This document shows positions 3,751-64,000 of a DNA stretch of 64,000 bases, piece by piece (the stretch's first letter is position 1; every line of letters starts with the position of its first letter). The position numbers were made by a program, and so were the translations under genes. Source of the stretch: Gekko japonicus (Eukaryota); the NCBI RefSeq assembly GCF_001447785.1, contig NW_015169184.1, forward strand, positions 767,453 to 831,452. Direction: 5' to 3'. The notes under the pieces were generated by a model. The model searched no databases. It worked only from the letters and a program-made list of their open reading frames with translations, and had not been told where the DNA came from.

Positions 3751-4532
3751 TGTTATATCGTGGCAAGTTGTGAATTTGGTGGTGTTCCCTTATTGCACTG
3801 TTTAGTTATTTTCCCCTGGTCCCTTAGGGCCCAAAAGCATGCGCTATAGTTTAGATTCACTTTCCTCTGTTGGTTGTTGGCTGTTAGTTTTTGTTCAAGC
3901 AGAGGCCAGGAAAGGCCCTGCTTTCGTTCCAATAAAACTTTCAACCCATCTGTCACAACGTGCTTGTGGAATTATTACACTGGCGATGAGGATGCTTTGC
4001 AATACCTGGATTACGAGATATTAACCTGAAACCGAATCAGAGCAGTGGCTGTTACTAAGCAGTACTGGCAAGTGTAGTCACCACCACGAAGGCTGCCTCT
4101 GCATGGAGGTTTGGCTCTAAACTGCCTCCCAAACCGTAGTGCTTCCCCCCACCCAAGCTTCTATACAACACCATAATGATGTTTTCCAACTTCTGGCTCT
4201 TCCCTTGTTCTCAGTGCATACTGCAGTTTCCTCCCAAGCTGCTTATGGTGCCATCTTTCTGGGATGGTGTAAAGGCTTTTCCCACCTTCGCTAAGGCTTC
4301 CAAAACAAAAATTCAAAAGTGAGAGGGAAAATGGTTCTCTCTCTCGCTCTCAGGAAGAGGGCAAACAGAACAAAAGTTAAAAAACACAACCCCAAGAGTA
4401 GTCTGCCACCAGGTCCCTTTAAGGTAGTTCCCAACAGCCAGGAGACAAGGGACCCAGGACTCCTGTCTGGTTGCTGGAATTCACAAAGCAAAACAAAGCT
4501 GCAGGTTATAGGGCTGCAGGACAAAAGTCAAA

Positions 4533-4990
4533 NNNNNNNNNNNNNNNNNNNNNNNNNNNNNNNNNNNNNNNNNNNNNNNNNNNNNNNNNNNNNNNNNNNN
4601 NNNNNNNNNNNNNNNNNNNNNNNNNNNNNNNNNNNNNNNNNNNNNNNNNNNNNNNNNNNNNNNNNNNNNNNNNNNNNNNNNNNNNNNNNNNNNNNNNNNN
4701 NNNNNNNNNNNNNNNNNNNNNNNNNNNNNNNNNNNNNNNNNNNNNNNNNNNNNNNNNNNNNNNNNNNNNNNNNNNNNNNNNNNNNNNNNNNNNNNNNNNN
4801 NNNNNNNNNNNNNNNNNNNNNNNNNNNNNNNNNNNNNNNNNNNNNNNNNNNNNNNNNNNNNNNNNNNNNNNNNNNNNNNNNNNNNNNNNNNNNNNNNNNN
4901 NNNNNNNNNNNNNNNNNNNNNNNNNNNNNNNNNNNNNNNNNNNNNNNNNNNNNNNNNNNNNNNNNNNNNNNNNNNNNNNNNNNNNNNNNN
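4533..4990. other. Assembly gap
   Basis: Run of N. Confidence 1.
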
Positions 4991-46098: not shown

Positions 46099-47998
<1,900 letters not shown>

Positions 47999-51041: not shown

Positions 51042-51323
51042 TACTTGCAGTAAAGAAAGATACCCAAATCCTACATTATCAAAATTAACTTTCACATTTT
51101 TCCATCGGGCTGTTTCATTGTTTTCCATAAGGCTTTTACACTGACTGAAATTGTTGACTTGATCAACAGGGAACCTTTCTTCATTTGTGGTATTAACACA
51201 GTAGTAGAACTTGCCAGCAAACAGATTTACGCCCATGATGCTGAAAATTAGCCAGAATATAAGACAAACGAGAAGCACGTTCATGATGGATGGAATTGCT
51301 CCTAAAAGGGCATTCACAACCAC
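51042..51323 (-). CDS. SCN1A: SCN1A coding exon 21 (DIII S5 and extracellular loop)
   Basis: 282 nt; [39 protein letters not shown]...[19 protein letters not shown]; TAG/GTAAGT. No upstream coding exon 20 was found in the window. Confidence 0.97.
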
Positions 51324-51445
51324 CTAGTGCACAGATATAGGAGGAAAAGAAAACAGTGTAAGAATACAAAGAACAGTAACATTATTGCTCTATTGCACCA
51401 ATGCGTACTTATTCTAAATCTGTTAAACACAATTTTGATTGCAAC

Positions 51446-51652
51446 CAGGGGTCATTGGGGGGGGACGCAGGGGGACGCCATCCCCCTGGGTGAGGTGCGG
51501 GAGGGCGGGGCCTGGAGCTCCCTGCTGGTGCCCGCTGGAGGTCGCCGCCGGCTGTGGGGAGGACACACTTCTGGTGATGTCAGGGGGTGTGGCATATGCT
51601 AATGAGTTATGCTAATGAGTCCCCTAGCTCTTTTTCTACGAAATGACCCCTG
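51446..51652. mobile_element. hAT MITE (207 bp)
   Basis: TIR CAGGGGTCATT; perfect 8-bp TSD ATTGCAAC. Confidence 0.92.
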
Positions 51653-52512
51653 ATTGCAACAGAGTCACAGTGTTTTACATTTTAATACTATCACATACTC
51701 AAACAGGACAACAAAGATGGAGTAAAAACGTAAAAAAATCTAAAGAAAAACCAAAATACGAAAAAGAAGGAAAAACAAACCAAAACCTGATAACATGGAG
51801 GCAGTTGATCTCTGTAAGAAAAGAGACATGCATTAAATACTAGTATGGGAAATCAAAATTAAAAAGAAAATGAAATAAATTGTTGCTTATAAACTAAAAT
51901 GACTTGCATCTTTTCTTTAAAACTACCAACACAGATATCACATATTTCATTCAGGGAATGAGTTAAGAGTTAGTACTTTTCGAGTACTACATGTAATCAT
52001 GCATTATTATTACAAAGATTAATTTTTTTGCATAAGGAAGCCAGACAGTTTTGCAATATGTGCTTATCTGAATAATCACATAGTTTATTTCAAGCTCCAG
52101 TCATTCTTAAGTAAATTGATTTCCTTTCATTTAAACATTTTGTTGAAGAAAATAAAAAGAAGACAATCATAAGTCAATATAAGGAAGGGGGTTAGATAAA
52201 GCTTCAAAAACATTTAAACAAAAATATTACTGGATGATTTGAATAAATTAAGATGTCACCTTGATTCTTAAACTATGACAACTCTTTTTGGAAAGTTATT
52301 GAAGAAAATTTAGGGGAGAAGAAATGTTACATAGAAAAACAAAGTTTCTACTTTAGAGTCACTGCAGAGTTTAACAGTGTAAAAGCCTGGCAGGAATATT
52401 TCAGAATGGGATGTAATTCTGTATATTAAATCTTATCACAGTCTCTGATCCAAGACAGCATAAAGTATCCAAAACTGTATGGCGTGGAACCCTTTGAAAA
52501 AATAAATAAATT

Positions 52513-54100
52513 GGGACTTCCAGTTTATGGTGACCCACTAGCGGACGTGTTCCCGATAGCTCTCAGGGAGGTGATCCGTGCAGCAGTGGCTGGGGGGGGG
52601 GAATTGTCCACTACCCCCCGAAGCCTTTGTGATAGGCTCCTAGCCATGAGGCTTTTGAAGGGTGGCCTCTTCGCCAGTGCAATGCTGGGGAATTGAGGCG
52701 CTCTTCTGCCCCGATGGTCCAGCCGTTGTGTGTCCGAAATGGAACCTGAGCCGCCAACCGGGACAAGCGTTGGAGATCGGGCGTTTTACACGTACCTTTG
52801 GCAAGGTCTTTGGACCAACAATGAACAGTGAGTTGAGTTAAACAAAAACATTGGGATTATAAAAGAAAGCTCCACACGGGATTGGCAAGACCAGTGAGTG
52901 GGGGAGGGGGCCCTCCCACACGCATAAATGAAGTAGCGATCTTCTAAGGGGGAGCTGAAGTAAAAGCGTTAAAATCTGTTTTGAAAGATACACTAGAGCG
53001 CCAATAAGTGATTGGGCAAATTGCAGAGACTTCAGCAAGTTCTTTTTAAAAGTAAGCAATCCACTAACATGGCGCTATGAAAAACGGAGAAAGAAAAGCA
53101 AGCGAAACTGAAACCTCCTGGAAGTGTGAGCCCAGGACCGGAAGATACCACTGAGTTTTCTAAGCTGTTAGCAGACTCTTTGCGCCCTCTACTGGATCAG
53201 ATGATGAATATCAATCAACAGCTGACAGCATTAAACCAGAACTTTGTAACTCAGCAGCTCCAACTGAATGAAACTACAAAATTGTCNNNNNNNNNNNNNN
53301 NNNNNNNNNNNNNNNNNNNNNNNNNNNNNNNNNNNNNNNNNNNNNNNNNNNNNNNNNNNNNNNNNNNNNNNNNNNNNNNNNNNNNNNNNNNNNNNNNNNN
53401 NNNNNNNNNNNNNNNNNNNNNNNNNNNNNNNNNNNNNNNNNNNNNNNNNNNNNNNNNNNNNNNNNNNNNNNNNNNNNNNNNNNNNNNNNNNNNNNNNNNN
53501 NNNNNNNNNNNNNNNNNNNNNNNNNNNNNNNNNNNNNNNNNNNNNNNNNNNNNNNNNNNNNNNNNNNNNNNNNNNNNNNNNNNNNNNNNNNNNNNNNNNN
53601 NNNNNNNNNNNNNNNNNNNNNNNNNNNNNNNNNNNNNNNNNNNNNNNNNNNNNNNNNNNNNNNNNNNNNNNNNNNNNNNNNNNNNNNNNNNNNNNNNNNN
53701 NNNNNNNNNNNNNNNNNNNNNNNNNNNNNNNNNNNNNNNNNNNNNNNNNNNNNNNNNNNNNNNNNNNNNNNNNNNNNNNNNNNNNNNNNNNNNNNNNNNN
53801 NNNNNNNNNNNNNNNNNNNNNNNNNNNNNNNNNNNNNNNNNNNNNNNNNNNNNNNNNNNNNNNNNNNNNNNNNNCTCTTGTGTTTTTCTTTAAACAGTGA
53901 AATTACTGGTTAAAAAGTTAAATAATATAGCTTAAACGACCATGTTCAATGTAACTATAGCATTTTAGATTAACACTGATACAAGCTACTGGAATGATCT
54001 CCTATACTTGGGTTTTTAGTAGGTTACTTTTCTTTCTCCCTTAGTTGTAATTCCCCTCCCTTATTTTCGTTGTAGTTTATAGAAAATGCAATAAAAAAAT
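52513..54100 (+). mobile_element. L1-like LINE with 5'UTR, ORF1 start and polyA end; middle in assembly gap
   Basis: GC-rich GGGACTTCC 5' end; ATG 53069 MAL*KTEKEKQAKLK...LLDQMMNINQQLTALNQNF (coiled-coil-like, premature TGA); AATAAAAAAA at ~54090. Confidence 0.6.
53287..53874. other. Assembly gap
   Basis: Run of N. Confidence 1.
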
Positions 54101-55485
54101 CCCCTCCAGGTGGCAAAAAAATAAAAAATAAATCCAGCTGATTGACAGTTTGATGGGTTGAAAGACAAATTCCAGTGGGATAGCTGTGTTACAGTGAAAT
54201 CCTAAGATGCTTTTCTGCAGATGAGCTCTACTGTAGATTTGAGTAGGATTCTGAGAGCAGACCTGCTTAGGATTGGTCTCTATGGAGCAAACTAGATAGT
54301 ATCCCTGAGGTCACCTTGAGGAGGCACCTCCATTTTGTAAAGTGAGTTTCCTGGAGGGAACTCCTTAAAATAGTGCTACAAGATCCTGATTCAACACAGT
54401 TGTCCTTCCCACCGTCCAACTTGATCAATCTTCGTTTTTATTGGTACCCACTGAAGTGAGCTTTGACTCACAAAAGCCAATACCCTGGAACATTTTGTTA
54501 GTCTTGAGTGTACAGAGGTGTTACCATAGGCCAGCAAGGCCAAACAGAGTACTGTATTTAGAAATTATAAACCTGCAAGAAAAAGGATCTTTCCTTGGTC
54601 ATGTACTGTTTGAAGCCTAGCTTTTCACAGCTCCTGGTTAAATGTCATTATATTCTTTAGTCATGTGTTTTTTCTGAATAAACGTTCTTGGGCTGGTCAA
54701 TTTGCCTCAGACATCAATCCAGGCTTATGTGAGTTTATAGTTCCCAGGCCCAGATTCTAACTCCTCAAACCATTTGAACATTTCCAGTGGGACCCCTGGT
54801 TCTGTAGGGTAGGTGGAAAAAATGTGTGCTGGCGGGAAGGATCCTGAGGGCAGATGTCACACTCAATTTATGTTGTGCTTCATAAGTAATCTTTAGGGAG
54901 CCCTGGTTTCTTTACACCGTGATACCAGAACTCATAAAATTTGCCACTGTAGGTGTATTGGGGTAGAAAGCATAGTCCACAGGCATGCCACAGGAGAGCC
55001 AGTGTGATGTAGGGGTTTAAATCCCTATTCAGATATTGAGCTCAGTGAGTGACCTTGGACCAATTACTATTGCTCTCAGTCTAACTGATGTCACAGGATT
55101 GTTGTGTGGATAAAATGGAGGAGAGAGGAGAACTAAGTATGTTGCTCTGAGATCTCTGAAGGCAGAGCAGAATAAAAATATGATGGGTATATTGAGAAGG
55201 AGAAAAAATACATTTCTTCCTAAACCACCCCTTTCAGTCATGACTGAGTCAAAATAATCATGATAAAAGCAACAGCCACTTATTATTAATAATGGCAGGT
55301 AGCTTTGAGGTACCTAGAGGAACATGGCTATATTTATTTTGAAAATAACCTTAAATGCTGGACTAATCTTGAAAGAGACTTAATGAATTCTCAGCAGTAT
55401 GTATATAACTGTCAAGCTCAGGCTAACTTTCGATTTCTTTCAACTCTGTTTCTCATTGTTGCTGGAGTGCATGGGAGTAGACGCT

Positions 55486-55887
55486 GGCCCCTGCCACACG
55501 GCAGGGGGTAAGTCGCTCAAAGCGCGGCTTTTAAAAGCCGCGCCAAAGTTGAGACGCCGCGGCGGGATCCCATGGATCCCCTGGGCCGCGGCGCCTTTTC
55601 TCCCTGGCACGATCAGATGCCGGGGAGAAAACACAGTTCAGATGGGGAGCCTGCCAAACTGCGCATGTCGGAGCATGCGCAGTTCGGCTAGGAGCCGGGC
55701 TTGCGGCGCCTCGTCGAGATGAACCACCTAGGTAGGTGGTTCTAAGTTGATGCGCTGTTTCGGGCAGAAGGGCCGGTTCAGGGACGGAAGCACTACGCTT
55801 CCCAGATGTTGTGGTGGGATCGTGCCCTTTTGCTGCATCCCCGAATTGTCCTTCTACCGGCCCAAATTCATCCGTGTGGACGGGGCC
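55486..55887. mobile_element. PIF/Harbinger-like MITE
   Basis: TIR GGCCCC..CCACACGG; 3-bp TSD GCT; shares TTCCCAGATGTTG..GATCGTGCCC block with the 31823 and 32539 copies. Confidence 0.83.
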
Positions 55888-57546
55888 GCTGTAACTTTCC
55901 TGAAGAAGCACCCCAAGTCAGTTTCCCATGAGACTGACCTTGGAGTACCTTTCTCTGCCAGCCTAGCCTACATCTGTCTGTGTTGCCATAGTAACGTCAG
56001 CGGTAGAGGTGATGTGTATGGATGTGGAATTTTATGCTTTTACCTATATCTTGTAATTTCCCATGCATTTCTTCAGCCCTAACAAAAGCTCTTGAACCCA
56101 CAGCATCACATCTCCAATAAAGCAGTACACTGCCGACAGTGTGTGTGAATTGGCTGGGGACCTAACAATAACTTCAGTAGGGAAAAGAGACCATTGAGAT
56201 GGAATACATTGTTGCAGGATTGCCCTCTGATCACTGAGGCTCAGTCTATCCCGCTAACTTATCTCACAGGGTTGTTGGGAGGATAAAATGGAGGAGGAAA
56301 GAATGATGTTATAAATCCCGTTTGGGGGGGGAAAGCAGGGTATAAATATTTAGATAAGCAAGTGGGCAGTATTTTTGCCAAGCCACACACAGGGAGTGGT
56401 CAACAGTGAGATGAGTCAGAAAAGAGGCAACTGCCTCTGCCCCCCTTCCCGTGGGTCCCCAAGACCTGTAGCAGTGCACAGGCCACTGCTATGGAAGAAG
56501 TGAATGGGGAAGTGGTGGTTGCCCATCAGGTACAGCACTTCTGCCACAGTTAAGGCCAGCTGCCCTCACCTTCTTCCCTTCTTCAGGATGCACACCACCA
56601 CCACCACAGGTAGAGGTATTGTTTCCTATTTTTTCCCTTCTTTAGCAAACAGGCAGAGAGGCAGCAATGGCTGCTGAACACCACTGGCAACTTTTAATTC
56701 ACCTGACCATGCAAGCATTGATGGTTATTGGGAGGTGGGAGAAAGTAAGCAAGCGAACAGCAATGGCTGTTCACATACCCAAGAGGGTAAGTGAGAAACT
56801 CTGCTAAGTCCGGCCTCTGCCTTCACTTGCCTGTTCTCCATCTGCCTTGCAAGAGTGCCACAATTAGGAATGGGACTGCTGAAATACGTCTTGCCAATGG
56901 CTCTGGGGCCCTGGCTATCCTATTGCAAACTGAGCTTGAAAGACTCCTCTGACTCAAAAGTGTTTTGACAGGGAGCATGATAGGCCACTGTTTACAGAAA
57001 CAGAAGCCCTAAATTCCCTTGGGCATGCAGAATCACAAAGTGATCTGAAACAGAGTTGCACCCTTCTAAATCCATTGAGGTCAATGGGCTTAGAAAGAGC
57101 GTAACGGTTTAGGACTGCAATGCCTTCCATGCAGTCCTCTGAGGACTCAAACGAAACATCCTGCCATCAAGTATGAGAGATTCTGGTTGAAGAAATATTT
57201 GCCTGAGTCAGAAATCAGTGGGAACACATTATACCTTTTCTTTCAACATACACATGAAGGGAAATTTTATGGTGAATTTTTTACACACTAAGAACAATCC
57301 AATACAGGTGATAGCTTTTATTTATTTATTTTAAAAACCTGATAGACGCTAGGAGAGGCATGTATTTCACTAATTACTGCCCTCCATGTTCTTGCATGTG
57401 TGGGGCATGTGATATGTTCAAATTTCCATAAAACATCTCCTTTCCCCTAAGTCAGGTTAAGTAGCAGTTTTTTATTACTTTGCTTGGAGCCTGGCTAATC
57501 CCGGAGTTTCTTTGTTTGTAAAACTGATGATCACAGTGTCCCCTCC

Positions 57547-58036
57547 AGCCAGTTTGGTATAGCGGTTAAGAGCACAGACTCTGATCTGGGAAAACCAGGT
57601 TTGATTCCCCACTTCTCCACATTCAGCTGCTGGTGTGACCTTGGGTCAGTCACAAGTTCTCTCCAAGCTGTTCTCAAAAGAGCAGTCCTTGAAAGAGCTC
57701 TCTCAGCCCCACCTACCTCACAGGCAATGTTCCCTCTAAGCTGTGGAGTCTTGTGAGCAAAAATTCAACTTTGTGAGCTACTGGCATTAAAGTCGTGAGC
57801 GCAATTTGCCTACTGCATAAATTAGTTTGCTCTGGAGCCATCCTTTCTGAGCTAAGAGAAAAATGTGTGAGCCAGAGGGTAAAAAAACTGTGAGCTAGCT
57901 CACACTAACTCAGCTTAGAGGGAACACTGCTCACAGGGTGTATGTTGTAGGGAGGAGAAAGGAAAGGAGATTGTAAACCACTCTGAGACTCCACTGGGTA
58001 CTGAAGGGCGGGTTATAAATCCAGTCTCTTCTCTTC
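57547..58036 (+). mobile_element. Squam3-type SINE interrupted by a hAT MITE
   Basis: SINE sequence resumes exactly after the MITE TSD. Confidence 0.85.
57725..57929. mobile_element. hAT MITE (205 bp; same family as 44496, opposite orientation)
   Basis: 19-bp TIR with one mismatch; perfect 8-bp TSD CTCACAGG. Confidence 0.92.
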
Positions 58037-60573
58037 CCCGACAGCAAGACCTTGCGTTCTAGGAGAACCTTGAGGTCTAAGCACCAGGAGGACTACTATA
58101 CCTAGTAATCTCTCTTACTTCTTTTTCTCTTCATTTCATATGGCTCACTGGGAAATAAAATTTCTTCTGATGTAGCTGAAAATGAGAGGAGCCCTCACCA
58201 ATCTTCCCCAAAGAATCGCCTCTGTGCTTGACTAGTAGACCACTTATTTCAAACTGGTTACCATCTTGTGCTTAAGGGTTTTGCTTCACTTCAGGTTCAA
58301 AGGAACAGAGATATTTTAGGTTCGAGTTTAGCTCTGCTTGACAGAACAAGCCTCTCTGAACCAGTTCCGGGTTCCAGCCGAAAGCATGGCTGGTATTGAG
58401 ATTCCTCTGGTCCCCAGAGATACCTGGGCTGGGTAGCTTGATTAGGTTGAGGCTTCCACCCTCCCCCCAGGAGATAGTTGGCTTTAAAAAGGGTGTTTGA
58501 TAAAGGCAGGGAAGTCTGTCAGTGGTTAATGATGACCAAGTGCACTTCCTCATTCAGAGGCCAGTAACCCTCTCAGTTTCAGTGCTGGGGCCAACAACAG
58601 GAGAGGGCTTTGGCTTCCATGCACTGCTTGTAAGGCTTGGGGGGCATTTGGTTGGCCACTATATAAAACAGGATGTTTGACTAGATGGACCATTCATCTG
58701 AACCAGGATGGCTGCTCTTATGCACATGCTGAATAATGCACTTTCAATCCACTTTTAATGCTTAGTGATTTTTTGCAAGTGGATTTTGCCATGGAACACA
58801 GTAAAATCCAGTTGCAAAGTACACTGAAAGTAGATTAAAAGCACATTGTTCAGAGTGTGTGCTCAAACCATTAGAAACAAAGGTCCTTTCAGCATTTGCC
58901 TGCCTCTCTGGATTCTCTCAGTGTTCGAGTCGAGGCAATTTAAGTCCACGGCAAGGAATTCATTAAATCTTGAACAGTCTTGTACTTGAATTTTCCTTTG
59001 GTCTTAAAAGTAAGGTAGGTTTACCATTTCTCTGGTTGGGGAGGAGGTTCCCCCACTGCAAGCTCCCATTGCCCAGTGCCCCTCCAAGAGGCAAAGGGAA
59101 TTTAAAAAAATGGTGGCATCACGGAAACCCGGAAGTGACAGGAGTAAGTCTATGGCTTTACCATGAAGTTTCCAGTGATTCCTAGAGCTACTCACTGTCA
59201 CTTTCACGTTTTCCCCAGAAGTGATGTCATCATGCCTGCTCCATGGCTGTCCCACCATGTCCTCAGTCTGGCAACCCAGCCTGGGAACCCTAACGGCAGT
59301 ATTTGATTTATTCATTTAATTACTTAGAAATCTTTTGTATTATTAAAATATTCTTCTAATTAACTGAGCAGCAGGGGGTTGGGGTTTTGTTTTGTTTTTT
59401 GGGAATGCCATTAGTTATCTTGAATTAAAGTATTTACAAATCCATGGTGGGAACAGGCATCTTCTCTGAGAGGTGTCTCTAACTCTGTCACACGCAAAGA
59501 AGTAATGACTCTTCTGTGACAATGCTTACTGTGATGCATACATCATATAAGCAAAAAGAAAGACTGTTTTTGTCCTCAGAAACACCCTTTTACTCAAAAA
59601 TCAATTAACAGACTTAATTGATCAACCAATTAAATCTCATCTAATTAGTGAACTAAGTTTTCATTAATCAAGTGACAACCCTAATTAAAATGCTTGTAAC
59701 TTCAAATAAAAAGTGCCTTAAACAAAAAGAGCCCTAAAAAAACACAAGGGATATAACATTTGGTTGAAGACACATGACATGTCAAGATAGTTGTGTCAGG
59801 ATTTTAAAGTGATTTTGTTGTGTGAAAGGAACCTCTATTAATAGTTTACGTGCTGGTCATTCACATTTTTTCAAAAGCTTTTTTTTTTATAGGATAATTC
59901 CAAGAGAGAATTTGCCTCAGTGATGAGATAAGACATAAGAAAGCTGTGCTTAAAAACTTGCTCGAGAAACTTAAAACGCTCTTTCTGTCTCTCAAAGCAG
60001 GGTAATGGAACAGAAATGTTTCCTATAGGAACATCATGTCCAGGACTTTTCCACTACTCCCTTTCCATTGCAGTCCTTCAGGTTTGCAAAAAATTACCCT
60101 TGAAATGGCATGGGACACAGTGTGGGGGTCTGCAGTTCAAAGGGGAGAATTGGCAGACATTGCTTCCCCGGTGTTGCAAGCAGAAGTGCCCCTCCACTCA
60201 CCAAAGGAGGAATTTGGATTGAACATATTGGTTTGGATCCAAACTAGTATTTCCATGGGCACAAGGATTTTTACCAGTGGAAGGTAGTAACAAGCCCAGA
60301 AGCACCTTTAAAATTAAGAAACTTAATATTGTAGCATAAGCTTTCAAGAAACACAGCTTTCTTCATCAGATGCATGGAGGGACAAGTGGAAGGCGATCTT
60401 ATCATCTCCCCCCTCCTGCAGCAGCCTGAAATGTCCCCTCATTTGGAGTTACTGTTGGAGTGGGGAAGGCAGGAAATCATACTCCGCAGGTGAACTCTTT
60501 ACACCTGTGGAAGCACTAGTCTGGATGCAAACTATTTACTGTAAAATTCACATAATTCCCTTCCCTTCATTAC

Positions 60574-60702
60574 GCCCATCACATGTTCAGTTTTTGCAAA
60601 ATAGTCAAGGGAACCAAAGCAGAGAATTGCGACCACGCCAAAGGATGGTGGTCCCAACCCGTAAGAACAGATTATCGACATAAGAGAATGTATTCATTGG
60701 AG
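60574..60702 (-). other. Candidate SCN1A poison exon (20N-like region); 3' boundary uncertain
   Basis: Acceptor TTTCAATTTTTTACAG| then CTC CAA TGA (in-frame stop); contains GATAATCT...TGGTTCC motifs resembling recalled human exon 20N. Confidence 0.35.
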
Positions 60703-62779
60703 CTGTAAAAAATTGAAATAGTTTTCTGATGCCATCAATTGCAAATGGAGTCATTGCTGCTTCAGTAAAAGAGGCATTTTAAAAAATCTGCTAAAGAATG
60801 TTCAAGATACCAATTTCTTGTTAAAGCTGCCTCCTTGGAAACTGGACTGGAAATTTGAAATATGATAAAACTTGAAAGCAATCAGCCAGGAATGTGCAGA
60901 AGACATGCAAAACGGAAAGTGCAAGGTGGAGTCTTTTTTAAAAAAAATCCTCCTTTTTGGCTTTGCTGCTTTAATCGAAACATCAAGCACGGCGTGACAT
61001 GCTGTCTTCCAGTGAGTTTACACATAAACACATGCTTTATCTCTACAGAAATTAATTCTCTAAATTTAGCAAAGCAAATGGATAGTCATTTTTTTACATT
61101 TACAACAACATACATGTTTGGCACTACTGCAAGAGGCGTTGCATTACAGGGAATATTAAAAAGACAAATAGGAAGCAATAGCTATATTAAAATCTCATTT
61201 TGCAAGTAGGTATAGGCACATATCTACATGCACTAAGATTAGAATATAGCTCTCAGTCCATGATAGAGATCTAATTTTGAATGAAAGCAGGAGCTTACTT
61301 TGCCTTCCAGCACCTATGCGGAGTTAGAATCGTTCAAATTTTCCCCTTCAAGAGATTCAGTAAGTTCTCAGGATAACACAACAAACTTGTATCCTTTTTA
61401 GAAATACTCTCTTTTGATCATTTTTGTCCCTGTTCCTATGGGGCTATTGTGAGCAATAAAACAGTTGAATTATATTTCACAGACTTACATTGTCCTTAGG
61501 TCTTGTGGCTGTCTTCTGCATACGACTAACATTACCAGTTTTTGGAACAGAGAAATCATATGAAATTAATTTAAAGCTCCATATATTAAATAGAAGAACG
61601 CAAATATGTGAACACTGAAACGTTCTTGGGAATGACAGGTCAGAACCTAAACTGTAATTGCATGAAAATGTCCCATTGTAACTAAATGAAACCAGATATG
61701 TTTTAAAATAATGCTAAAACCAGATTGATGATGCTAGACCACAATTTCCTTTCAGCTTGAAGGGCACTCATTATTGCCAGCTCTGAATCTGTTGACTGAT
61801 GTTTTCAGGATAAATAACGGTCTTGTTTGCGAGGATTTAAGTGTTGGTCCTATTCTTAATTTATTAATAGCTTTCATTACCAAGAAGTATATTTCAATGA
61901 ATGAGACTTCTCAGTTAAAAAGCTGGAAACTAACTGACGCTCAGAGGTGGAAGCTTAAGGCAGCAAACATGATTTGTGGCATTACTACTGGCCCAATGAC
62001 TTCCAAACCTGCTGAGTTCTAGACTGCCAGGAAATCAGAATCCATAGACCAAACTCACTGCATGGTGAGAAAAGAAGATACTGTACTGGGAATGGAGAGC
62101 CCCAAAAGATCAGTAAACATTATTTAAGGGACTTTTAGGTCCCCAGCTTATTTCCCCAGAATAAAAAAAGTCATTAATGAACATCAGATAAAAATGGTTT
62201 CAAGTTACAAACTTCATGAAACATCCTAAAGGACATAGTCTGTGTTCTACTCACACTAGCTGAACTGTAGTTCTGTGGTGCCCATGGCACTGACCGACTG
62301 CTGCCCATAATGAAAGTAAGGGGGTAATTAATTGTCTGCAGTACTCATTTCCTCTGTAGCAACCCAATCCTGTCAATGGCATGTATTCAACCACCCAGTT
62401 CTTTCGATGGAATGGCATTTCCATTTATGGAAGAAGGGGTGGTAATTTCTGTTGATTCCCAGCTTCTACTGCAGACACTCACTTTGCACCCTGTGCTGTT
62501 CCTGAGGGTCCACTATGCCCTAGAAACAATATTTGGGGTAAGGGGGGTTCAGTGGGCTGCAGCAGGATGGGGAAGCAAGGAAGTCCTACTCAACTTGCCT
62601 TTGTCTTGTTCCCCACAGAATGTGGCTGCTGAAATATGAACTGTCTCATAGTGCAATCCTAAGCAGAGTGACACCCTCCTCAGTCCACTGAAATTAATGG
62701 ACTTAAAATGGTGTAACTTTATTTAGAATTGCAGAGTCCCAAGTGTTTTGTTATGAAGTTTCATAGAAGTTCTTTTTCC

Positions 62780-63373
62780 TGTTCACGAATCATTCATTAA
62801 CAGACACCGATTTCTGTGAAAGGTGCACAGTTTCTAAATTCTGGCCAAGTGCTTTGGCGAAAAAATTCTGTGTAAGTCATTTGCACACTTTATACACTTT
62901 GCCACTGGATTTGTGTTTTCAGATCACTAGATGTTATTTCTTTGGCTCCTTGGCTCAATGAGATAAACCTTTTAAGCAACGGCGGGGGGATGGATAGGAA
63001 ATGGCATAACAGATACAGTTGTTTACACATGACACCTTGGTTCCTTCTAAATAGCATTAACGAGAAAAGTTGCAATGGAAATTGCTTGCGAATGGGAATA
63101 AAATGAAACCCAGTCTAATCATTTTTCTTCTTATATGAACCTTTTTTTGCAGAATGGCATATTCTTGGTACTCATATTACATGAACATTAAGCATCATTG
63201 CTTTTCTTGAAGGTAATTTAGGAAGGAGTACAAAGAACAACAGTTCCCCAAACATTTGTGCCAACAAAAAACACATTTGCAAGAATGTTCATGAATAGTA
63301 AATAAAAAGAAGTATGGAGAAGTATGGAGAAACCAAACAGTCAGTCGAAAAACCGAATGAATGTTCGTGAACA
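62780..63373. mobile_element. Old TIR element
   Basis: TGTTCACGAATCATTCATT ... AATGAATGTTCGTGAACA inverted termini. Confidence 0.5.
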
Positions 63374-63397
63374 CTACAGCGATTGACCAGCTCTTAC

Positions 63398-63477
63398 CCT
63401 ATTCCACTGCTGACTTCTCAATTCATGAATTTCTCGTTTAAAGGGATTTGTTGAAATTAAGGGGTGGTTAGATGCAC
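63398..63477 (-). other. Candidate 80-nt poison/cryptic exon in SCN1A intron 20
   Basis: ACTGAC branch-like motif, ATTTCAG|GTG...AGG|GTAAGA; in-frame TAA at codon 7. Confidence 0.3.
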
Positions 63478-64000
63478 CTGAAATTCATGTACTGAGTCAG
63501 TTTCAATTTACAATATTTCTTCTTCCAAATTTTGAAGAAAAGATAATGCAACCTGATGGATACAATTCGAGGAACTGAGCTCTCATCGTCTGAATTTAAT
63601 TTCAGGGTACTGCTGATGGCTTTACATCTAAGCACTATTTTAGACAACAGGGCAGTAGGTTGCTCTCATTAGATAAGATTTTTAAAATATTCTTCAGAAG
63701 CTGTTTCCTCTTATGTTTCCATGAAGCGGCAAGAAAAGCATTCTCTCAGAATAACAGGTTTGAATAACATGCAATTTGGATCGATTTGTATACAGAGAGC
63801 AAACTAATTGTTCCAACTTTGGAGCTAATGGCTTCAAAGATGAACAGTCTTTGGAAGTTTTTCTTTCGTGACCAGTACTGTCACAAGCTAACCCATTATC
63901 TTTAAGGATGAGAAGAAAACAGGGATATAGCGTAAGCAACTTTTCTGAGATAGCAGTTAAGCAGTGATCTTGAGTTATTTCAGAAAGCAAACATATAATA

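What the first reader, a model, noticed from the sequence alone, without database searches (positions are those of the whole stretch)
60530..60800. Probable reptilian counterpart of SCN1A poison exon 20N with a relocated splice acceptor
Established: mammalian SCN1A intron 20 holds a conserved 64-nt NMD-inducing exon (20N), an antisense-therapy target in Dravet syndrome. Seen (minus strand): GATAATCTGTTCTTACGGGTTGGG...GCTTTGGTTCC at 60676->60610. This resembles my recollection of human 20N (GATAATCTTGCTCCAACTTGGATGGGG...GCTGGTTCC), but it is preceded by TC rather than AG. A strong acceptor TTTCAATTTTTTACAG| lies 26 nt upstream (exon start 60702) and reads CTC CAA TGA, an immediate stop in the phase-0 frame. 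A small hairpin (GACCAC/GTGGTC, 60631-60653) lies inside. Possible donors would end the exon at 60659, 60574 or 60540; none is strong. Inference: the poison-exon switch may be an ancient amniote feature with splice-site turnover, or this is the pre-exonised ancestral state.
Basis: partly seen in the sequence, partly recalled or inferred. Interest (0 to 1): 0.7.

Follow-up and report, generated by a model that had tools for sequence, protein, structure and literature searches.

The report
Decayed SCN1A poison-exon remnant in lizard
A reptile's Nav1.1 sodium-channel gene has a faint look-alike of the mammalian self-destruct exon targeted in Dravet-syndrome therapy, in the same intron, but the look-alike lacks both of that exon's splice signals and is likely a decaying remnant rather than a working switch.

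Summary
The stretch lies in intron 20, 31% of the way in; human 20N lies at 35%. The rest is weaker than claimed. The likeness to the published mouse 20N oligo is a few 7-8-base words, compared by eye only; the mouse guide 20-mer finds nothing within 3 mismatches. There is no AG before GATAAT and no GT 64 bases on. The upstream acceptor is moderate (rank 6 of 832 AGs; control introns hold about 13 as strong per 13.5 kb) and the three named donors are poor. The hairpin is chance-level. A low-depth contig from a related organism differs at 9% of the element, including the GATAAT motif, against 2-7% in the flanks. Splicing could not be tested. DNA conservation of 20N in alligator and duck is already published (PMC7790302), so "ancient amniote" is not new and "pre-exonised ancestor" is unlikely. 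Best reading: a decayed 20N remnant (0.5). Rivals: chance likeness (0.27) and a working exon with a moved acceptor (0.2).

The parts
51324..64000 (-). SCN1A intron 20, the part inside the window. The whole intron is 13,474 nt and begins 797 nt beyond the window, after the 123-nt exon 20 at G000:C9474:832372-832250.
51042..51323 (-). SCN1A exon 21 (282 nt, phase 0 at both ends)
60610..60676 (-). 20N-like core: begins GATAATCT, ends TGGTTCC; preceded by TC, with no GT 64 nt on
   Evidence: sequence; by-eye comparison with the mouse oligo printed in PMC7790302
60703..60722 (-). Candidate acceptor (first exon base 60702), 8.3 bits, rank 6 of 832 AGs in the intron
60694..60696 (-). TGA, third codon after the candidate acceptor in phase 0
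60788..60807 (-).
60477..60485 (-). Best donor within 250 nt of the acceptor (exon end 60483, 6.5 bits, rank 14 of 653); would give a 220-nt exon
60568..60576 (-). The donors after 60540 and 60659 rank 79 and 221.
60631..60653 (-). 6-bp GC-rich stem, chance-level
60813..61480 (-). Upstream intronic block that looks better conserved than the core; holds two TGCATG words (60909-60904, 61232-61227). The upper end is inferred from a contig's length.
   Evidence: X5: 674-nt contig, 3 differences in the 48 nt seen; X7: one listed substitution in 60828-60957. That TGCATG is the Rbfox motif is recalled.

Best explanation
The stretch lies in intron 20 of this reptile's SCN1A gene, lacks the AG and GT that bound mammalian poison exon 20N, and is likely the decayed remnant of that exon, predicted to be spliced out with the intron. 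Shown: gene identity, intron, phase, relative position, absence of splice dinucleotides at the positions matching the mouse exon ends, and moderate-to-weak strength of the substitute sites. Inferred: (1) descent from the amniote 20N element; (2) loss of the acceptor and donor in this lineage, after which the sequence drifted; (3) the AG at 60703 is an ordinary cryptic acceptor that is rarely or never used; (4) any developmental damping of Nav1.1 here would rest on something else, in-frame skipping of exon 21 being one candidate.
For: SCN1A identity: best solved-structure match Nav1.1 273.7 bits against Nav1.2 269.8, sharing a Nav1.1-type insertion. Most named top hits are SCN1A, with squamates leading at 89-90%. 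Gene order on the contig is a plus-strand paralog, TTC21B-like exons, this gene, then a minus-strand paralog (the match to the human order is recalled). Position +4122 of 13,474 nt, 30.6%, against +2426 of 6,965 nt, 34.8%, worked out from coordinates in PMC9882217 (PMC7790302 says about 8 kb). Only 2 GATAAT words exist in the intron's sense strand. By eye, 19 of the first 27 columns match the mouse exon, with 2 gaps (oligo). Decay: TC in place of AG, and no GT at +65. No match to the mouse guide 20-mer within 3 mismatches in 64,000 + 10,000 nt. The X7 contig over 60558-60711 has 14 differences and 1 gap in 154 nt, against 147 in 4,198 nt over five flanking contigs (Fisher p 0.0015), with changes at 60678, 60677 and 60675, at and inside the motif. 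X1 has 5 differences packed into 60527-60552.
Against: Homology was judged by eye only. The shared words are not collinear (GCTCCAA lies before GATAATCT here and after it in mouse), and by a hand estimate the best of about 80 windows in this intron could share as many words by chance. The X7 contig has depth 3.3, where the tool warns that differences may be errors; short contigs are enriched for differences; and against the most diverged flank (47 of 654) the excess vanishes (p 0.40). The mouse 20N donor is itself far from consensus (by eye), so weak donors do not exclude use. The acceptor is still in the top 1% of the intron's AGs, and X7's depth-10.9 contig shows at most one difference across 60696-60728. 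The splice model rests on about 40 sites and is not MaxEntScan or SpliceAI.
Confidence: 0.5

Rival explanations
1. The likeness is chance: this is ordinary intron DNA beside a conserved block, and the true 20N ortholog is deleted, unrecognisable or elsewhere in the intron.
For: The 8-mer anchor is at chance frequency. The guide 20-mer is absent. By eye, five words of 7-8 nt are shared with the 131-nt mouse oligo, against about 2 expected by hand estimate, and they are not in one order. The other GATAAT (63900) sits on the intron's top-scoring acceptor (first base 63899, 10.4 bits). X7 differs by only about 2% over 62500-64900.
Against: The longer anchor matches exactly the first 8 bases of the mouse exon, lies at a similar relative position, and lies just downstream of a block kept in a more distant organism, as human 20N lies within a conserved segment reaching at least 269 nt upstream (10.1101/2023.05.04.538282). 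The 63900 site shares only six bases and lies at 7% of the intron.
Confidence: 0.27
2. A working poison exon with turned-over splice sites: exon 20 is spliced to 60702, the TGA at codon 3 triggers nonsense-mediated decay, and the exon ends at 60574, 60503 or 60483. The new acceptor may have come from a short local duplication of the old acceptor region, one copy keeping AG and CTCCAA, the other GATAATCT.
For: The acceptor ranks 6 of 832 and lies 26 nt from the motif; the 60702-60483 pair ranks 7 of 399 pairs. The stop is immediate. GCTCCAA at 60703-60697 also occurs at positions 10-16 of the mouse exon (by eye). There is little change across the acceptor in X7's main contig. Two TGCATG words lie 200-530 nt upstream.
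Against: Control introns hold 25 acceptors this strong in 26,650 nt, 9 of them with an equally good donor in range (4.6 per 13.5 kb). The exon body shows no constraint in X7 or X1. X5 differs at 13-15 of about 100 nt around the acceptor, including 60715 and 60714. The duplication idea rests on by-eye matches of about 50-55%.
Confidence: 0.2

Closest known systems
Mammalian SCN1A poison exon 20N (20x; 21x in mouse; human chr2:166007230-166007293). PMC7790302, PMC7347940, PMC11981616, PMC6889285 (passages read).
   Same: Same gene, same phase-0 intron, similar relative position; first 8 bases identical to the mouse exon; inclusion from 60702 would also truncate the channel in domain III.
   Different: No AG or GT at the matching ends; no 64-nt exon can be cut; by-eye identity about 70% over 27 columns and patchy beyond, against 96% human-mouse (PMC7347940); the stop would lie inside the exon rather than in exon 21; no constraint seen; use not shown.
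SCN8A poison exon 18N (as described in passages of PMC7790302 and PMC9882217)
   Same: Unproductive splicing in the domain III region of a sodium-channel gene, high in fetal brain.
   Different: Another paralog. None of 10 paralog loci from this genome aligns to 60400-61250 above background.
SCN1A poison exons 1N and 22N (PMC11981616, passages)
   Same: They show that SCN1A poison exons can be lineage-restricted and poorly conserved, so lack of conservation does not by itself exclude low-level use.
   Different: Other introns; they are shown by long reads in human cells, whereas nothing here is shown to be spliced.

Membership tests
SCN1A poison exon 20N | Lies in the SCN1A ortholog | tested here: met
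SCN1A poison exon 20N | In the phase-0 intron between the 123-nt exon 20 and the 282-nt exon 21, about a third of the way in | tested here: met
   30.6% against 34.8% (coordinates)
SCN1A poison exon 20N | AG acceptor directly before GATAAT | tested here: not met
   TC precedes it; the mouse boundary is fixed by the junction primers
SCN1A poison exon 20N | GT donor giving a 64-nt exon | tested here: not met
   64 nt from 60676 ends at 60613 and is followed by TC; from 60702 the donors give 44, 129, 163, 200 or 220 nt
SCN1A poison exon 20N | Clear sequence homology to the mammalian exon | tested here: inconclusive
   Guide 20-mer absent at 3 mismatches; by-eye 19 of 27 columns; no computed alignment
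SCN1A poison exon 20N | Strong purifying selection on the exon and its flanks | tested here: not met
   9% divergence in X7 against 2-7% in flanks, motif itself changed; one low-depth contig only
SCN1A poison exon 20N | Inclusion creates a premature stop far upstream of the last junction | tested here: met
   Only if 60702 is used (TGA at codon 3); 13.6% of the intron's AGs do the same
SCN1A poison exon 20N | Spliced to exons 20 and 21 in transcripts | tested here: inconclusive
   No joint in 6 of 18 listed runs laid, but no RNA-type run laid over exon 20 had any depth there
SCN1A poison exon 20N | NMD-sensitive, high in embryonic brain and falling after birth | not testable with these tools
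   Needs staged brain RNA with and without NMD inhibition

The most novel reading that the evidence does not exclude
This lizard lineage rewired the developmental off-switch of Nav1.1. The ancestral 64-nt 20N lost both splice sites, and either a new acceptor born by local duplication now feeds an exon with an immediate stop, or in-frame skipping of exon 21 (seen in 43 of 114 informative bird and squamate protein models) does the job instead. Either would be a natural experiment on what 20N is for.
Probability: 0.22. Interest if true: 0.55.

Novelty: new variant of a known kind. Interest (0 to 1): 0.24.

Why it matters
20N is the target of an antisense therapy that forces its skipping (PMC13191285, passages). 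A vertebrate lineage that lost or rebuilt the exon would show whether the switch is dispensable and which flanking elements outlast it; the upstream block, where human disease variants lie 262-269 nt before the exon, seems to. As it stands the finding is one degenerate copy of a known element whose DNA conservation in reptiles and birds is already in print, so its weight is modest until lizard brain RNA and a squamate alignment are in hand.

Tried and rejected
RNA evidence: no RNA holder listed for L002:1400-6000, which is no evidence either way. Six of the 18 listed runs were laid (X1, X2, X7, X8; X1, X7, X5, X9). No joint entered or left the element. X1, X2 and X8 had zero depth on exon 20 and X9 had no read on the short stretch, so this is no test of splicing. 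X1's 330-nt contig runs unspliced across 60413-60742, but its RNA status is a guess. The lack of X5 contigs below 60681 and of a high-depth X7 contig below 60696 is a hole that proves nothing.

Outgroup DNA: a pattern from the upstream block gave 7 metagenome and 2 genome loci. The 7 align no further than the pattern and the 2 are bacterial records; all were rejected as chance. A search of the own genome found only the locus itself, and 10 paralog loci scored 33-44 against nulls of 28.5-43. No computed alignment to a mammal, bird or crocodilian intron was made, because no such DNA was held; homology stays open.

Coding remnant or duplicated exon: tblastn of a lizard Nav1.1 against 60400-61500 gave best E 0.17; rejected. 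None of 114 informative proteins carries an insert after exon 20, but NMD isoforms are rarely annotated as proteins. Hairpin as a functional element: rejected. The pseudo-exon control (43 acceptors) counted weak acceptors sharing one donor and included a locus with unmapped exons; it was replaced. Pre-exonised ancestral state: rejected on parsimony, with the caveat that the published alignment figure could not be viewed.

Literature: no paper with SCN1A + poison exon + lizard, poison exon + squamate + conserved, SCN1A + exon 21 + skipping + snake, or SCN1A + skipping of exon 21 + in-frame. One review came up for chicken and three papers; none was read. Carvill 2018 is not held. Earlier findings: none near or by sequence; eight unrelated notes by words.

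Full report
Observation. Every coordinate in the finding is correct. The question is what the letters mean.

Gene and intron. The window holds the 3' exons of a sodium-channel gene on the minus strand. Exon 20 lies just beyond the window in the own genome. The domain II-III linker exon matches human Nav1.1 best among solved structures (273.7 bits against 269.8 for Nav1.2). Among the 120 listed of 806 proteins, most named hits are SCN1A, with squamates leading at 89-90% and birds at 87-89%, so the animal is likely a lizard. The contig carries a plus-strand paralog below and a minus-strand paralog above, and TTC21B-like exons lie downstream in the window (that label and the human gene order are recalled). 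Intron 20 is 13,474 nt and phase 0; the motif lies at +4122, or 30.6%. Human 20N starts at +2426 of 6,965 nt, or 34.8%, worked out from variant coordinates in PMC9882217.

Likeness to 20N. By eye, the first 8 bases are identical and 19 of the first 27 columns match with two gaps; beyond that the match is patchy. Five words of 7-8 nt are shared between the 131-nt oligo and 60730-60560. By a hand estimate about two are expected, the words are not in one order, and the intron offers about 80 such windows, so this is suggestive, not significant. The guide 20-mer finds nothing within three mismatches in the window or the next 10 kb, and the 8-mer is at chance frequency. What lifts homology to about 0.7 in my estimate is that the exact match is at the exon's very start, at a similar relative position, next to a block that a more distant organism has kept. 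No computed alignment was possible: scans for outgroup DNA gave only chance hits, and paralog introns do not align.

Splice signals. There is no AG before the motif and no GT 64 nt on. A weight matrix from 39 acceptors and 37 donors of this genome's own channel genes gives the 60702 acceptor 8.3 bits: rank 6 of 832, above a third of true sites, tied with one at 60787. Six control introns (26,650 nt) hold 25 acceptors as strong, 9 with as good a donor in range. An early stop follows 108 of 795 AGs, and the hairpin is unremarkable. Against my reading, the mouse donor is also weak by eye, and the model is small.

Constraint. Run X7 (organism C) has contigs 2-7% diverged across the intron, but its 157-nt contig over the element has 14 differences and a gap in 154 nt, three of them at or in the motif. 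The excess over the pooled flanks has p 0.0015; over the most diverged flank, p 0.40. The contig has depth 3.3, so this is one weak line. It shows no excess conservation where a 20N-like exon should have it. X1 differs at five places within 60527-60552. X5 (organism B) differs at 13-15 of about 100 nt around the acceptor but at only 3 of the 48 nt seen of a 674-nt contig running upstream from 60813. In favour of the rival, X7's main contig has at most one difference across the acceptor.

Splicing. Untested in effect: no joint was seen, but no RNA-type run laid over exon 20 had any depth there.

Mechanism. Most likely the amniote 20N lost its acceptor and donor in this lineage and has drifted since, while the upstream intronic block persisted; transcripts would splice exon 20 to exon 21 (0.5). 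Chance likeness takes 0.27, and a working exon with turned-over sites 0.2. For the last, GCTCCAA at the new acceptor also occurs early in the mouse exon, which would fit a short local duplication; this is by eye only. A side result offers another off-switch: of 114 listed proteins that carry the end of exon 20, 70 continue into exon 21, 43 jump in frame to exon 22 (39 bird, 4 squamate models) and 1 reads into the intron.

What is known. 20N is a 64-nt, NMD-sensitive, developmentally falling exon in mammals (PMC7790302, PMC11981616). Its DNA is aligned for opossum, alligator and duck and across 77 vertebrates, and PMC6889285 states conservation across vertebrates. An ancient origin is therefore not new, and the lizard state is more simply derived than ancestral. 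Two defining features (both splice sites) were tested and not met, so this is not filed as a 20N member. My searches found no paper on a lizard or squamate 20N.

Papers seen: PMC7790302, passages, one methods section and the supplement list (figures not seen); 10.1101/2023.05.04.538282, passages (supplements not seen); PMC11981616, passages; PMC7347940, passages and supplement rows; PMC13191285, passages; PMC9882217, passages and a table; PMC6889285, passages; 10.1101/2025.06.26.661736, one passage. Carvill 2018 was not held and is known here only through the others.

Verdict. Observation partly confirmed; interpretation partly supported; likely a decayed remnant of a known element. Interest 0.24.

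Noticed in passing
Two TGCATG words lie 509 and 680 nt upstream of exon 21 (51832, 52003). Two paper searches found nothing on it.
   Followed up: partly
window 46291-47860: The intron between exons 23 and 24 begins AT and ends AC; three paralog loci show the same AT start or AC end. AT-AC introns in sodium-channel genes are known (recalled).
   Followed up: partly
L007:3737-7588: Intron 2 also runs AT...AC, with a minor-spliceosome-like donor and branch site (the motifs are recalled). A near copy of the first 69 nt of exon 3 with its acceptor lies inside it at L007:4281-4213.
   Followed up: no
L007:468-355 and L007:278-180: Two tandem versions of exon 5, as in the known 5N/5A pair of SCN1A (PMC6889285 feature 9).
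   Followed up: no
window 63880-63920 and 63390-63400: The intron's top-scoring acceptor (first base 63899) overlaps the only other GATAAT, and its top-scoring donor follows 63398; the best-scoring pseudo-exon is 63552-63398.
   Followed up: partly
window 60813-61480: Block kept in the more distant organism B, with depth 16-22 in a small contig set; donors after 61489 and 61299 (ranks 3 and 11) flank or lie in it. It may be the functional part of this region.
   Followed up: partly
L018 (G000:C6764:44789-46273) and G000:C9579:3044-3118: One paralog has two exon-20-like copies 1.4 kb apart (88% and 63% identical to the query); another contig has a partial copy.
   Followed up: no
window about 1800-27400, minus strand: Exons that read like TTC21B lie downstream of the channel gene (label recalled, not searched).
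   Followed up: no
window about 53290-53880 and 4530-4990: Runs of N (1,085 N in the window); the first lies inside intron 20, so a feature there cannot be seen.
   Followed up: no
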